Shown here piece after piece: positions 32,663 to 42,824 of a stretch of DNA of 49,463 nt (the first letter of the stretch is position 1; the number at the start of each line of letters is the position of its first letter). The position numbers and the translations under genes were made by a program. The DNA lies in the IMG/VR virus record IMGVR_UViG_3300012943_000012, positions 1 to 49,463 of that record. One strand, given 5' to 3'. The notes beneath the pieces were generated by a model that did no database searches, was not told the DNA's origin, and saw nothing but the letters and a program-made list of their open reading frames with translations. The DNA comes from a virus (lineage: Duplodnaviria; Caudoviricetes).

Positions 32663-34266
32663 TATGCAAAGCCTCCGAACTTGGCGTGATAATTACTTGC
32701 TGGCTTAAACAACTCAATCATACTCGTCCTAGCAGATTTGGTAGGTACTATAGCAATGGAAACAGCAGATGCTAAGGCATCCTTAATATCATCATGAGGA
32801 GGACGGGACAGGACAAGTTCCTCTTCTAGGACTTCAGTCCATCCACCTTCCATGTGCCACATAGTCATACTGTCATAACGATGTTCAAGGGCAGCAGCAA
32901 TACGCTCTTCCTTGTTGCCTTCATTACGAGTTGGTCTAAACTCCTCTACAGAAAGTTTAAGACCAGACTTAGTGACGTAATCTTTAATATCATTAACAAT
33001 GACCTTCTGAGCTACAGTAACCTCACATCGCAGTTTATTAAAGTTCCACTTAGAATGGAGGTCGCGGATGTGGTTAAAGTACTCAATAGTCTTATCAGCT
33101 TTGAATCTATCAATATCTAAAATGTAGATAGCACCAGTATGATCAACTCCAATAACCACAATAGCCGACCAGTCGGCCTTCTTAGTCAAGGAGAATGCGA
33201 AGTCTACTGAAGCATATACATTAAGTCTGTTGTCTTTGAAGTACCACCTATCACCCTGCTTCTTAAGGAAACGGGGATTATAGTACTGGAACTTCTCCCT
33301 GCTGATTCTATCTGAGCCCGGATCATTGGGATCATTATAATACTGAGCATAGAACTGAACTCTGTCAGAGTACTCAGCCTTAATACGTGAAAGAATCTGT
33401 TGATTAAAACCAAAGGCTTTACCGTCTTTACGGATGGCTCGTGGCCAAAGGTATATGCCCTCATCCTCGACGGCGTACTCTTTGATTTCCCAAACAGGGG
33501 ACACATCAATCTTAATACCTTCTGCATCAAAGATATCATAGACTTGTTCTTTCCAATCCCGATAAACATCAGCGGGATGGTATCTTGTACCACATGCTAC
33601 AGTGAATCCACCAGAGTTTCTGATGGAGGTAAACTGAGAGGCCTTACGAGAGACAAGGTTTCTACCTTCCTCAGTATAAGCGTTCTCAGGAACAACCAAG
33701 TCATCAGCGATGATGACATCAGCATGCCAACCTGTAGTATTAGTAGTAAGGCCAGCTGTGGCTACCGTGGCATCTCTGATACCTTCAGCTTTACGCTTAG
33801 GATGATCAATGGAGAGCTTAGTAGCTGACCACTTATCACGCTTACCTTCTTGAGGATTAATGTACTCAGGAAAGTATCTCTGATAGACACTTGAACCTAG
33901 AATATTCTTAACTGCATAGAGCTGGGTTTCAGCTAGCTCTGCTGTTGCAGAAAGATACAAGGCTGTAATCTCTGGATGCCTAGTGATAATCCAAGAAAGC
34001 CATGTTGCTACAACGTGACTCTTAAGATGACCACGGGGAAGGAGCATTAGTTTATTACTTGCAAGCTCCAACCCCTGACCAAACAATTCATAACTGTGCA
34101 ACCAAGAATACAACTCTCTATGGATCGCTCCATACATATAACCGGGGTTGACTAGACGGGCATAGTAGTTGAGATCAGCCATAGCATGTTCTCTGACTTC
34201 CTTAGCCTTGTCAGGCATACTGTCTAGTCTACGCTGAGCTTCTACAAGCCAGTCTTCTTCAATCAT
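32662..34266 (-). CDS. terL: Terminase large subunit
   Basis: PRGHLKS Walker A, IIADD Walker B, GTRY, nuclease VDFA...HDDIKDA. Confidence 0.95.
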   Translation of the reverse strand: MIEEDWLVEAQRRLDSMPDKAKEVREHAMADLNYYARLVNPGYMYGAIHRELYSWLHSYELFGQGLELASNKLMLLPRGHLKSHVVATWLSWIITRHPEITALYLSATAELAETQLYAVKNILGSSVYQRYFPEYINPQEGKRDKWSATKLSIDHPKRKAEGIRDATVATAGLTTNTTGWHADVIIADDLVVPENAYTEEGRNLVSRKASQFTSIRNSGGFTVACGTRYHPADVYRDWKEQVYDIFDAEGIKIDVSPVWEIKEYAVEDEGIYLWPRAIRKDGKAFGFNQQILSRIKAEYSDRVQFYAQYYNDPNDPGSDRISREKFQYYNPRFLKKQGDRWYFKDNRLNVYASVDFAFSLTKKADWSAIVVIGVDHTGAIYILDIDRFKADKTIEYFNHIRDLHSKWNFNKLRCEVTVAQKVIVNDIKDYVTKSGLKLSVEEFRPTRNEGNKEERIAAALEHRYDSMTMWHMEGGWTEVLEEELVLSRPPHDDIKDALASAVSIAIVPTKSARTSMIELFKPASNYHAKFGGFA

Positions 34267-36764: not shown

Positions 36765-37197
36765 CAGTATCTCCAAGGGAAGTCCTACTTAGGGCTACCA
36801 CAAGTCTTCCTTAGACAAGGAGGTAGATAATATGTATAAGCCTTATATAAGGAAAAGTCCTAGGAGAGTGGCTCTTGATCTACTACATGTTCTTTTCTCT
36901 TTAATGCATGCTCTTTCTTCGAAAGCTCTTCTCTCGAAGAGAGTATTCCTTACGTAGTAAGAACTATGCTCTCTTATACTTTTCTTACGCTTATATACTA
37001 TATAACCTCATTTTTAGGCATTTTAGGACAAATTATTTTCATTAATTTTAATTTATTTTTAGGAAGTGTTATAAATCATATACTTAGCTATTAGCTATAT
37101 TTTCCTTTAGAAATTCTTAAGGTGTATTGCACCCATATAAGCACACCCCCGACCCCCCTTTAGCCCCCTTAACATTTCCTTAGCATACGCCAGCGTA

Positions 37198-37206
37198 TGT
37201 TATAAT
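37198..37206 (+). promoter_or_regulatory. Candidate extended -10 sigma70 early promoter
   Basis: TGTTATAAT facing the early arm. Confidence 0.5.
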
Positions 37207-37443
37207 GTATCATGGGGGGTGCAATAACACCCGGGTATAACCTTCATCTAACCTTAGTTTAACATCTCCTTAACTATCAATGTGTTACATACGCGCACGC
37301 CTGGTTCCTCATATGTGCATGCCCTAATGCATGCCAACCTATGACTAATGGCATAGGCCATATGGCATATAGACTCTCCTCCTCGACTGTGTCAATCTAT
37401 CTCCACGGTCAGGCAATGACCTAGATGCAGCAAGGCTGGCAGC

Positions 37444-37977
37444 CAACTGGCAACAGTTGTAGCACCCACGTCCTTGTCATACCTAGGGCATCACCTACCC
37501 AGCTAAGCGAGACGCTAGTGGTTAGCCTCGGTCCATGAGACCAGCCCCATTCAGCTAACGTTCAGTGAACCCGTAGTATGATTCATCCATGAGTTGGGCA
37601 ACCAACTATGAGTGTTCAGGAACTAAGGTCCGGCCGGAAGGCGCAGGCTTAGGGAGAGTTGCACTCATGCCAACCTGAGCCATAATCAGGCTGCCGAGTC
37701 GGAGGCAAAAACCGAAAGAGTCGCGGTGCAGGCATCGATGAGTGCACCCCCGCTACCATCGCGGGCAACATGAGGTTGAGGGAGTAACAGGCTTACAACC
37801 TGTGAAAGCTAGGCTTCTGGATGGGTGAGCAAAGGACGAGACCACGTCTCAAGCAGTCCCCTCACAAGGTTGGGCAACCAAGGATAAGAATCCTAGGCGA
37901 AGCCTAACTAGCCCTCATTAGGGCAGCAAGCTAAGGCTTGCTCATATACCTTGTGTCTAGTTAGGATCAGGGTATAT
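37444..37977 (+). ncRNA. Candidate large structured RNA/leader (~540 nt)
   Basis: No credible ORF; about 20 hairpins, GNRA loops and long-range helices. Confidence 0.6.
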
Positions 37978-38011
37978 CATCAAGCCTTAACTAACACAAC
38001 AGGACAAGACC

Positions 38012-38143
38012 ATGATCAAGTATATGTTCTTTGCCTCAAGGGATGAAGCTGGTCAGTTCATTCTTAATCATAGGGTAGACGGTGGTATGTGCTACTACGT
38101 TGGCATGAATGGTAATGATCACGAAGTGAGGGTCATCGTATGA
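38012..38143 (+). CDS. 43-aa early protein
   Basis: AGGA RBS; ATGA overlap with next gene. Confidence 0.6.
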   Translation: MIKYMFFASRDEAGQFILNHRVDGGMCYYVGMNGNDHEVRVIV

Positions 38144-41732: not shown

Positions 41733-41810
41733 GCGCCTATAGCTCAGTTGGATTAGAGCAGGGGACTTCTAAGCCCATGGTCGGCGGTTCGAGTCCGTCT
41801 AGGCGTACCA
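41733..41810 (+). tRNA. tRNA-Arg(TCT)
   Basis: Acceptor GCGCCTA/TAGGCGT, D arm, loop CTTCTAA, GGTTCGAGTCC, encoded CCA. Confidence 0.92.
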
Positions 41811-41815
41811 CTTCA

Positions 41816-41888
41816 GCGTCCATAGTTCAATTGGTAGAATCTCAGGTTTCCAACTTGGTTGTTGTGAGTTCGAGTCTCACTGGACGCT
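41816..41888 (+). tRNA. tRNA-Gly(TCC)
   Basis: Acceptor GCGTCCA/TGGACGC, loop TTTCCAA, GTTCGAGTC; followed by CCG rather than CCA. Confidence 0.9.
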
Positions 41889-41992
41889 CCGCCTTCCCTA
41901 AGCCCCTACAAGGGCTTCCTAACAACTCCCTAATACCAACCCTAAGGGGTGGCTCTAGAAAGGGCTTACAGAGGCTTACAGACGTGTTCACG

Positions 41993-42134: not shown

Positions 42135-42314
42135 ATGACTCGTAGATTTTTGTTCTTCATTTTAGAAATGATTGTTATAGGCTTGGCATTCCTGTCCAAC
42201 AATATGGCTGGTAACCACTGGGGTACTGGTGAGTACGCTGCTCTGTTCCTGGCAGTCTTTTTCTTCGGCACCCTAGCTAACTGGGTCCTATCCGAAGAAT
42301 TAGGTTACTATTAA
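42135..42314 (+). CDS. 59-aa two-TM membrane protein
   Basis: Clean ORF with two hydrophobic helices. Confidence 0.6.
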   Translation: MTRRFLFFILEMIVIGLAFLSNNMAGNHWGTGEYAALFLAVFFFGTLANWVLSEELGYY

Positions 42315-42321
42315 GTTCAAC

Positions 42322-42542
42322 TGAACAGGTAGTTTATCGGACTAAAACTCACCATAGCCTCTATCACCTACCCATCAAGATGATGAGTTGGTAGGAATGG
42401 ATATCAAGTAATCCTGAAACTAGACCCAGATTAGCCTAGAGACGTGTATACGCCTCAAATCTAAAGTCGAGGCTACATCCAGGAACTCTTGTGGTGATAC
42501 ATTTGGTGAAAGATGGGGTCAGGACCCATCCCTGTTCAACTA
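42322..42542 (+). ncRNA. tRNA-shaped RNA with large structured insert
   Basis: Acceptor-, D-, anticodon- and T-like stems flank a ~150-nt folded insert. Confidence 0.65.
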
Positions 42543-42635
42543 TTCTGGAGATAAGATGATCACGATATGCCTTATGATGGCAGCTCTGGCCATCTTAGCT
42601 TACTGTTCTAAAGATGATGACAACGGGAGACACCC

Positions 42636-42824
42636 ATGAGTAAGCATGTTGCCACTAAAACCCCCTATTTTCCCCAGCTCCGTAACAGCTTGGGACAGTT
42701 CCTTCGGAGCCTTGAACGGTTAGTTCACACCTCAGCCTTCATCATCCCTGAGCATAAGAATAATCAGGGAGCCACTGTAAGCCCCTCTGTGCGTCGTCCT
42801 GGTCTCACCTATAGGAAGGCCTAG
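42636..42824 (+). CDS. Hypothetical protein
   Basis: GGAG RBS. Confidence 0.6.
   Translation: MSKHVATKTPYFPQLRNSLGQFLRSLERLVHTSAFIIPEHKNNQGATVSPSVRRPGLTYRKA

What the first reader, a model, noticed from the sequence alone, without database searches (positions are those of the whole stretch)
42322..42542. tRNA-shaped RNA whose anticodon loop is replaced by a ~150-nt pseudoknotted domain
Seen in sequence: an 8-bp acceptor-like stem TGAACAGG (42322-29)/CCTGTTCA (42531-38) followed by ACTA, one base from ACCA. A D-like arm AGTTT-ATCGGACTA-AAACT has GG in its loop. An anticodon-like stem CACCA (42350-54)/TGGTG (42504-08) and a T-like arm GATGGG-GTCAGGA-CCCATC (no TTC) directly abut the acceptor stem. 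The insert has TAGCCTC (42355-61)/GAGGCTA (42469-75), CCTACC/GGTAGG enclosing CATCA/TGATG, and TATCACC (42362-68)/GGTGATA (42493-99), which crosses the first helix as a pseudoknot. Established: a tRNA-like domain plus a pseudoknotted insert is the tmRNA layout, and Y-RNA-like RNAs and T4 species I/II RNAs also carry tRNA-like ends. This element lacks the tmRNA GGGGC end and the G3:U70 Ala determinant. Inference: an undescribed tRNA mimic, such as a decoy for anticodon nucleases, a ribosome-binding RNA, or a carrier for the nearby ligases.
Basis: partly seen in the sequence, partly recalled or inferred. Interest (0 to 1): 0.85.

Follow-up and report, generated by a model that had tools for sequence, protein, structure and literature searches.

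The report
Anticodon-less phage tRNA mimic, variant elbow
A soil phage carries a 221-base stretch shaped like a tRNA whose decoding loop is replaced by a 149-base insert predicted to fold on its own; it likely makes a stable, non-decoding RNA of the unexplained kind known from phages T4 and T5, but no relative was found to test its fold or its job.

Summary
The tRNA frame is real. All the named helices are at the stated places. A loose cloverleaf descriptor hit once in 583 shuffles of the genome, and in related phages it returned only ordinary tRNAs. The element fills an intergenic gap near two tRNA genes of a complete Zobellviridae-like soil phage.

It is not a tmRNA, Y RNA or group I intron, and no single excision restores a normal anticodon loop.

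New here: the T-loop GUCAGGA resembles the variant T-loops (purine at 54) of alphaproteobacterial-type tmRNAs and of an unannotated phage tRNA-like family. Its T-arm is 15/17 identical to examples of both, so the missing TTC is probably not decay.

The pseudoknot is unproven. Its two helices can also be rival nested folds 3.2 kcal/mol apart, and no homologue was found, so there is no covariation.

The closest known layout is phage T5 RNA1/RNA2 and T4 RNA C, all of unknown function. The scan has noted this general layout on other DNA before (unchecked notes), but no look-alike sequence. Best reading: a non-decoding RNA whose tRNA frame likely gets a structured cargo matured and stabilised, possibly as a decoy. 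New variant of a known kind; interest 0.45.

The parts
42322..42542 (+). Whole tRNA-shaped element, intergenic (between a stop at 42314 and an ATG at 42556)
42322..42329 (+). Acceptor stem 5' strand; pairs with 42531-38 (8 WC pairs, probability 0.81-1.0); third pair is A-U, not G-U
42330..42349 (+). U8, A9, D arm (4 bp, 9-nt loop with A14, G18 G19, A20), U26; D arm resembles a phage tRNA-Arg D arm; thermodynamically weak
   Evidence: the tRNA-Arg locus was picked by a D-arm pattern, so the likeness is partly by construction
42350..42354 (+). Anticodon-position stem 5' strand; pairs with 42504-08
   Evidence: probability 0.69-0.83
42355..42503 (+). 149-nt insert replacing the anticodon loop
42355..42475 (+). 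Helix A (42355-61/42469-75, 7 WC pairs) closing hairpin C (42367-95), a small hairpin (42399-414) and an irregular rod (42423-68); its 3' strand has two more partners at 42432-37 and 42452-56
42362..42499 (+). Helix B (42362-68/42493-99, 7 WC pairs): crosses A (pseudoknot) or replaces it (alternative fold); repeats the TCACC/GGTGA of the outer stem
42480..42491 (+). Small hairpin between the 3' strands of A and B
42512..42530 (+). T arm, 6 bp (or 5 bp plus one bulged C); loop GUCAGGA at 42518-24 of the variant G54/G58 type; 15 of 17 identical to the Melnitz tmRNA and Bestia T arms
42531..42542 (+). Acceptor 3' strand and ACTA tail; CCA is not encoded
41733..41810 (+). tRNA-Arg(TCT), CCA encoded
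41816..41890 (+). tRNA-Gly(TCC), complete CCA not encoded
42135..42314 (+). 59-aa hydrophobic ORF upstream, no family match
42556..42639 (+). 27-aa hydrophobic ORF downstream, with GGAG at 42547-50; no PHROG match

Best explanation
The element is a tRNA-shaped sequence with no anticodon loop, and it likely encodes a stable, non-decoding small RNA whose tRNA frame would get host enzymes to cut it out and finish its ends, so that it would present a 149-base folded cargo together with a tRNA-like elbow. Shown: a complete cloverleaf frame with perfect stems, an intergenic place on the same strand 430 nt behind two tRNA genes, no recoverable anticodon loop, no encoded CCA, and a T-loop of a variant type that other natural RNAs use. 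Inferred: co-transcription with the tRNA genes; 5' cutting by RNase P; 3' trimming and CCA addition, as this phage's tRNA-Gly would also need; an L-shaped elbow (G18-U55, G19-C56, U8-A14). The most likely job (inferred, about 0.3 on its own) is a decoy or binding partner for a host protein that recognises tRNA shape, such as a tRNA-cutting or tRNA-sensing defence factor, with the insert supplying specificity. Helices A and B form either a pseudoknot or a two-state switch.
For: The frame is far beyond chance. All frame stems are pure Watson-Crick while the T-loop differs from TTCGAAT at several places, which suggests selection on shape rather than decay (inference). The T-loop fits the loops of alpha-type tmRNAs (GGCAGTA, GGCAGAA, GGCGGTG, GGCGGTA twice) and of the Bestia-type phage genes (GGCAGTA, AGCGTTA, ATCGTTA); 0 of 108 distinct ARAGORN tRNAs in the held loci had G54. 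The same layout (tRNA frame, folded domain at the anticodon position) is seen in T5 RNA1 and RNA2, annotated 'tRNA-like stable RNA with unknown functions', and more loosely in T4 RNA C. T4 RNA C is a real transcript by northern blot (PMC9697503, passages). The element fits exactly between two ORFs.
Against: No homologue anywhere searched, so there is no covariation and no proof of selection (73/77, 74/76/77, 128, 138/140/141). The closest relative (G001) has tRNA genes at the same spot but no such RNA. The D stem is not favoured thermodynamically, and the overall z-score is matched by other windows of the genome. The acceptor-T helix is 13-14 bp, not 12. The T-arm likeness is post hoc: the ATGGG stem also occurs in 2 of 108 ordinary tRNAs, the Bestia gene was found with the Melnitz T arm as query, and G59 is seen in none of the comparison loops. 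Nothing tests the decoy role.
Confidence: 0.55

Rival explanations
1. A recently broken tRNA gene or structured leftover with no function as an RNA: a tRNA-derived frame hit by an insertion and now drifting, or an mRNA structure in front of the 27-aa ORF.
For: Singleton: no homologue found. Insert alone folds little better than shuffles (z -1.69). Short repeats TCACC, TGGTGA and TAGCCT could be scars of local duplication. A ribosome-binding site lies 5 nt after the 3' end.
Against: All 19-20 pairs of the acceptor, anticodon-position and T stems are Watson-Crick. The T-loop changes fall on a pattern other natural RNAs use.
Confidence: 0.17
2. The insert is itself catalytic or a ligand-driven switch (a small ribozyme or aptamer carried on a tRNA scaffold).
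For: Order of strands A5'-B5'-C-...-A3'-hairpin-B3' recalls the P1/P2/P3/P4 order of HDV-like ribozymes (recalled, not from a call). Two folds lie 3.2 kcal/mol apart. Adjacent crossing 7-bp helices are rare in shuffles (0.64%).
Against: No Rfam family at E up to 10 except a 17-nt chance match. By eye: no G-U at the first pair, no P1.1-type GG, no linker between A and B, and 70 extra nt between C and A3'.
Confidence: 0.1
3. A tRNA gene interrupted by an intron (group I or an unknown small type, like the 'enigmatic' tRNA introns of Lak phages) that is spliced to give a working tRNA.
For: The insert sits in the anticodon loop. In one register a cut after U33 leaves a CAU triplet. Short group-I-like words are visible by eye. 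Lak phage tRNAs carry unexplained inserts (10.1101/356790, passages).
Against: 0 of 16 single excisions give both U33 and a purine at 37, and the cut after U33 that leaves CAU does not end the insert in G. No Intron_gpI match at E up to 10. No splicing partner was recognised among the 20 proteins scanned.
Confidence: 0.07
4. A derivative of an alphaproteobacterial-type tmRNA that acts as an SmpB or trans-translation decoy, like the truncated tmRNA of phage DS6A.
For: T arm 15/17 identical to the Melnitz tmRNA T arm. tRNA-like domain plus possible pseudoknot. The DS6A form inhibits host tmRNA (PMC11915505 and PMC4131195, passages).
Against: No G3-U70 and no GGGGC end; it has a D stem and an anticodon-type stem; no tag-like frame. 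No alpha_tmRNA match at E up to 10 and no ARAGORN tmRNA. Likeness to Melnitz is confined to 18 nt, and the same loop type occurs in non-tmRNA phage genes.
Confidence: 0.07
5. A dedicated carrier RNA for the neighbouring ligase and amidotransferase gene cluster.
For: The cluster (GGCT, two glutamine amidotransferases, COOH-NH2 ligase, ATP-grasp protein) starts 1.2 kb downstream.
Against: In the 80 records collected through the ligase (54 at least 90% complete) the RNA model gave one weak match, E 0.06, that was a plain hairpin on inspection.
Confidence: 0.03

Closest known systems
Phage T5 RNA1 (AY543070 30501-30644) and RNA2 (32959-33083), annotated 'tRNA-like stable RNA with unknown functions'
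   Same: In a phage tRNA region; acceptor stem, D-like arm and T arm kept; anticodon loop replaced by a longer folded domain (fold predicted); no Rfam match at their coordinates at E up to 0.1.
   Different: They are 144 and 125 nt with standard TTCRA T-loops and an extra variable hairpin; ours is 221 nt with a 149-nt insert, crossing helices and a G54/G58 T-loop. No sequence likeness beyond 8-13 nt chance words.
Phage T4 RNA C and RNA D (species 1 and 2; NC_000866 70908-71046, 71053-71171)
   Same: Small stable RNAs from the tRNA region, function unknown (PMC9697503 and PMC3014915, passages); RNA C ends in a T arm and closing stem.
   Different: RNA C has no clear D arm or anticodon-type stem in its predicted fold, and has a standard T-loop; no sequence match.
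Alphaproteobacterial-type two-piece tmRNA (Rfam RF01849, RF04321; e.g. phage Melnitz MZ577097)
   Same: T arm nearly identical (15/17); variant T-loop with G54, C56, purine 57, G58.
   Different: No alanine identity, no tag frame, not permuted, D stem present; family search negative.
Unannotated 90-nt tRNA-like genes of Acinetobacter and Aeromonas phages (Bestia, BS46, Acj61, phiA009, 4L372XY)
   Same: D arm plus variant purine-54 T-loop in a phage tRNA cluster; Bestia T arm 15/17 identical.
   Different: They have a 9-nt anticodon loop, a long variable arm, an encoded ACCA and a different D loop; a profile of five members did not hit the element.
YrlA-type Y RNAs (Rfam RF02553; PMC4201824, passages)
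   Same: Non-decoding tRNA mimic with D and T arms.
   Different: In YrlA the acceptor-like stem is closed by a loop, the ends lie in the Ro60-binding part, and genes lie beside Ro60; here the ends are in the acceptor stem and the genome has no TROVE protein.

Membership tests
Canonical tRNA (RF00005) | Cloverleaf frame with U8, A14, G18 G19 | tested here: met
Canonical tRNA (RF00005) | 7-nt anticodon loop with U33 and purine 37 | tested here: not met
   149-nt insert; 0 of 16 single excisions give it
Canonical tRNA (RF00005) | T-loop U54 U55 C56 R57 A58 | tested here: not met
   loop is GUCAGGA; no ARAGORN or Rfam call
tmRNA (standard or alpha-type) | G3-U70 alanine determinant and GGGGC 5' end | tested here: not met
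   third pair A-U in either register
tmRNA (standard or alpha-type) | No D stem or anticodon stem; tag reading frame ending in small hydrophobic residues | tested here: not met
tmRNA (alpha-type) | Variant T-loop G54..C56 R57 G58..A60 | tested here: met
   5 of 7 loop letters and 15 of 17 arm letters match Melnitz
Group I intron in a tRNA | Core P3-P7 model match, 5' exon ending in U, terminal G, exons rejoining to a tRNA | tested here: not met
YrlA / Y RNA | Encoded beside Ro60; ends outside the acceptor-like stem; RF02553 match | tested here: not met
HDV-like / theta ribozyme | Double pseudoknot with P1.1, G-U at the cleavage site, catalytic C (features recalled) | tested here: not met
   no Rfam match; features absent by eye
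T5 RNA1/RNA2- and T4 RNA C-type tRNA-like stable RNAs (a descriptive class) | tRNA frame with a folded domain at the anticodon position, in a phage tRNA region | tested here: met
T5 RNA1/RNA2- and T4 RNA C-type tRNA-like stable RNAs (a descriptive class) | Sequence homology to a known member | tested here: not met
T5 RNA1/RNA2- and T4 RNA C-type tRNA-like stable RNAs (a descriptive class) | Accumulates as a discrete stable RNA during infection | not testable with these tools
   needs RNA data from infected cells
Bestia-type phage tRNA-like genes | 9-nt anticodon loop, long variable arm, encoded ACCA, profile match | tested here: not met

The most novel reading that the evidence does not exclude
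A natural tRNA-scaffolded ribozyme or switch: a phage RNA that uses a tRNA body with a tmRNA-type elbow as a processing and stability chassis for a 149-nt pseudoknotted or two-state domain of a new fold with its own activity against host translation or defence.
Probability: 0.15. Interest if true: 0.85.

Novelty: new variant of a known kind. Interest (0 to 1): 0.45.

Why it matters
The tRNA-like stable RNAs of T4 and T5 still have no known job (PMC9697503, PMC3014915, passages). This example differs from those I compared in two ways: a larger insert that may form a pseudoknot or switch, and a T-loop of the variant type used by alpha-type tmRNAs and by an unannotated phage tRNA-like family. That loop type is a practical search handle, since tools built on the standard TTC loop miss such genes. 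If the RNA proves to be a processed decoy or catalyst, it would show that phages use tRNA bodies as natural scaffolds for cargo RNAs. As a singleton from an uncultured phage it is a weaker test object than T5 RNA1.

Tried and rejected
Homologue searches, all without a credible hit:
- blastn in INPHARED phages: whole element, two halves, 3' end; only short chance words.
- blastn in PLSDB plasmids: no match.
- IMG/VR pattern scans: exact T arm, 0 hits; T-loop pattern, 119 matches from 35 of 64 parts of the collection, none with a tRNA frame among the 40 best-paired of 75 distinct contexts printed; D-arm pattern, 18 loci, one an ordinary tRNA-Arg, none a homologue; insert 15-mer, 61 loci, none extending.
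- JGI metagenomes: one strict 22-mer scan, which returned only the window's own contig.
- GTDB genomes: one gapped pattern, one chance hit.
- Single-sequence covariance model R1 over 92 sources, 99 IMG/VR records and 16 named phage records. The model rests on one sequence and the genome search has a coarse first filter, so distant homologues could be missed.
- Variant T-loop pattern in 80 related records: 12 matches, none in a tRNA frame.
- Leads L072, L088, L010 and L045 were inspected and are coding DNA or plain hairpins.
- Protein-anchored searches for closer phages: 0 loci, 1 locus, 80 loci with ligase identity at most 59%, 24 loci.

Expression: no RNA holder listed; this says nothing either way.

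Considered and rejected by eye, using recalled features: RNase P C-domain, a nested second tRNA, group II intron domain 5, lariat-capping ribozyme. Also rejected: a minus-strand reading (descriptor negative, model E 2.3) and a protein-coding explanation (stops in all six frames over 42315-42645).

Literature: ten searches found no description of this RNA, and none gave a text hit for the variant T-loop words. Subscription journals are mostly not covered. PMC5389517 was seen only as a listing. No supplements were read; tables of predicted viral structured RNAs could hold relatives.

Full report
Setting. The window is a complete 49,463-base virus record with direct terminal repeats. Its terminase is 72% and its COOH-NH2 ligase 57% identical to those of Pseudomonas phages PA11 and O4, which are filed under Zobellviridae. 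The only sequencing run listed as holding it is a soil metagenome, possibly the source. The element lies between a 59-aa ORF ending at 42314 and a 27-aa ORF starting at 42556. It is on the same strand as tRNA-Arg(TCT) and tRNA-Gly(TCC), about 430 nt downstream.

Is the observation right? Yes. All helices are present with Watson-Crick pairs only. A descriptor for a cloverleaf with a 7-400 nt anticodon insert, allowing G-U pairs and any T-loop, found the element in the window and 1 hit in 583 shuffles of the window. In 87 related loci (about 1.5 Mb) it gave 20 rows, all ordinary tRNAs; it missed the window's own two tRNAs, so it is specific rather than sensitive. A separately assembled contig agrees letter for letter over the element. 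ARAGORN and Rfam 15 do not call it.

Weak points. The folding z-score (-2.93) is beaten by 3 of 22 tiled windows nearby (25 shuffles each), and the insert alone has z -1.69. The D stem has pairing probability about 0.01 because a shifted hairpin is 2.7 kcal/mol better. Helix B shares two bases with helix C. Adjacent crossing 7-bp helices occurred in 0.64% of 5000 insert shuffles, which favours B being real, though the pattern was chosen after seeing it. Forcing B gives a fully nested fold only 3.2 kcal/mol above the best one. The strands are also repeated: TCACC at 42349 and 42364, TGGTGA at 42492 and 42504, TAGCCT at 42355 and 42432. A pseudoknot, a two-state switch and duplication scars all remain open.

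What it is not. It is not a decoding tRNA or an intron-bearing one: none of 16 single excisions in two stem registers gives U33 together with a purine at 37, and the cut after U33 that would leave CAU does not end in G. The group I model does not match at E up to 10. It is not a tmRNA: no G3-U70, a D stem is present, there is no tag frame, and ARAGORN and the alpha_tmRNA model are negative. It is not a Y RNA: the ends are in the acceptor stem and the genome has no TROVE protein (YrlA features from PMC4201824, passages). It is unlikely to be a partner of the ligase cluster, which is shared by 80 related records with no credible match to the RNA. The nearest relative, G001, has three tRNA genes at the same spot and nothing like it.

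The T-loop. I recalled that alphaproteobacterial tmRNAs use a variant T-loop and checked this on real records. The tmRNA of phage Melnitz has the T arm AUGGG-GGCAGUA-CCCAU against AUGGG-GUCAGGA-CCCAU here, 15 of 17 identical. Four more alpha-type tmRNAs have GGCAGAA, GGCGGTG and GGCGGTA twice. Searching with the Melnitz arm also found an unannotated 90-nt tRNA-like gene in the tRNA cluster of Acinetobacter phage Bestia with the same T arm. It has relatives in 8 Acinetobacter and 9 Aeromonas phage records, duplicates included, with loops GGCAGTA, AGCGTTA and ATCGTTA. None of 108 distinct ARAGORN tRNAs in the held loci had G54. So the loop likely belongs to a natural purine-54 class, which keeps U55, C56 and a purine at 57 for the D-loop contacts (G18-55 and G19-C56 as described in PMC7609411, passages). 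Cautions: the match was judged after the fact, the ATGGG stem also occurs in 2 of the 108 ordinary tRNAs, G59 is in none of the comparison loops, and Bestia was found through Melnitz. Outside the T arm there is no likeness to either family. The D arm is 17 of 19 identical to that of a phage tRNA-Arg(ACG), but that locus was picked by a D-arm pattern.

Closest known kind. Earlier notes of this scan pointed to the T5 and T4 stable RNAs, so I fetched them. T5 RNA1 and RNA2 are annotated 'tRNA-like stable RNA with unknown functions' and are predicted to fold as a tRNA frame with a longer domain at the anticodon position; T4 RNA C is similar but looser. They also have no Rfam match. T4 RNA C and D are late RNAs of unknown function, RNA C checked by northern blot (PMC9697503; PMC3014915; passages only). 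The element shares their layout, not their sequence. Lak phage tRNAs with unexplained inserts are another parallel (10.1101/356790, passages). The scan's notes list many more phage RNAs with this layout but no look-alike of this sequence; these are unchecked AI notes and are not counted as support.

How it most likely works. Shown: frame, position, absence of an anticodon loop and of encoded CCA, variant T-loop. Inferred from general tRNA biology (own knowledge): it is transcribed with the tRNA genes, cut by RNase P, trimmed and given CCA by the host, as the phage's tRNA-Gly would also need, and it folds into an L-shaped elbow carrying the 149-nt domain. Engineered tRNA scaffolds work this way (recalled). 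It cannot decode. Whether it is charged is unknown; there is no alanine mark. I put 0.55 on a processed, non-decoding scaffold RNA. The most likely job is a decoy or ligand for a host protein that reads tRNA shape (about 0.3). Rivals: functionless remnant or mRNA structure 0.17, catalytic or switching cargo 0.10, spliced tRNA 0.07, tmRNA-derived SmpB decoy 0.07 (precedent DS6A; PMC11915505 and PMC4131195, passages), ligase carrier 0.03.

Limits. No homologue was found in the searches listed under Tried and rejected. Several were weak: one strict pattern in metagenomes, a partial scan in IMG/VR, and a covariance model from one sequence. There is therefore no covariation, and no RNA data were available. 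Ten literature searches found no description, but the library lacks most subscription papers and no supplements were read.

Verdict. A real, unannotated tRNA-shaped element; a new variant of a known but unexplained kind of phage RNA, set apart by its large, possibly pseudoknotted insert and its variant T-loop. Interest 0.45. The boldest open reading, a tRNA-scaffolded ribozyme or switch of a new fold, gets probability 0.15 and interest 0.85.

Noticed in passing
L322:845-934 (MW316733), L327, L328, L329-L331: Unannotated family of 90-nt tRNA-like genes in Acinetobacter and Aeromonas phages: 9-nt anticodon loop, long variable arm, purine-54 T-loop, ACCA end; stems differ between members yet still pair.
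   Followed up: partly
L323:824-1232, L324:815-1200, L325:842-1206: Alpha-type two-piece tmRNA genes not annotated in Erythrobacter phage vB_EliS-L02, Mesorhizobium phage Cp1R7A-A1 and Rhodobacter phage RcRudolph; in the last it overlaps an annotated hypothetical ORF.
   Followed up: no
L238, minus strand, about 390-175: In the tRNA cluster of a 217-kb phage, a stretch of about 215 nt that looks by eye like a divergent RNase P RNA, preceded by a truncated tRNA-like 5' half; no Rfam match at E up to 0.1.
   Followed up: partly
window 43518-43490, minus strand; L010:197: A leftward sigma-70-like promoter (TTGACA, 17 nt, TAnnnT) about 1 kb downstream points back toward the element, antisense; a similar one sits at the same place in the closest relative.
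   Followed up: no
window 42412-42417 and 42519-42524: Six bases of the insert are exactly complementary to the element's own T-loop; may be chance.
   Followed up: no
window 42423-42639: A stop-free frame without a start codon runs through the 3' half of the element into the 27-aa downstream ORF; its length is within chance.
   Followed up: no
window 36776-38012: Long non-coding region with a repeated 13-mer (37593, 37869) and a 25-nt inverted repeat (37929-37992); perhaps genome end, origin or early promoters.
   Followed up: no
L004:2034-2103: Pseudomonas phage GP100 has an annotated 'tRNA-Pseudo-TTA' in the equivalent early region.
   Followed up: no
window 41816-41890; L003, L019-L076: tRNA-Gly lacks a complete encoded CCA. 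Most tRNAs picked up in related phages are tRNA-Arg(TCT).
   Followed up: no
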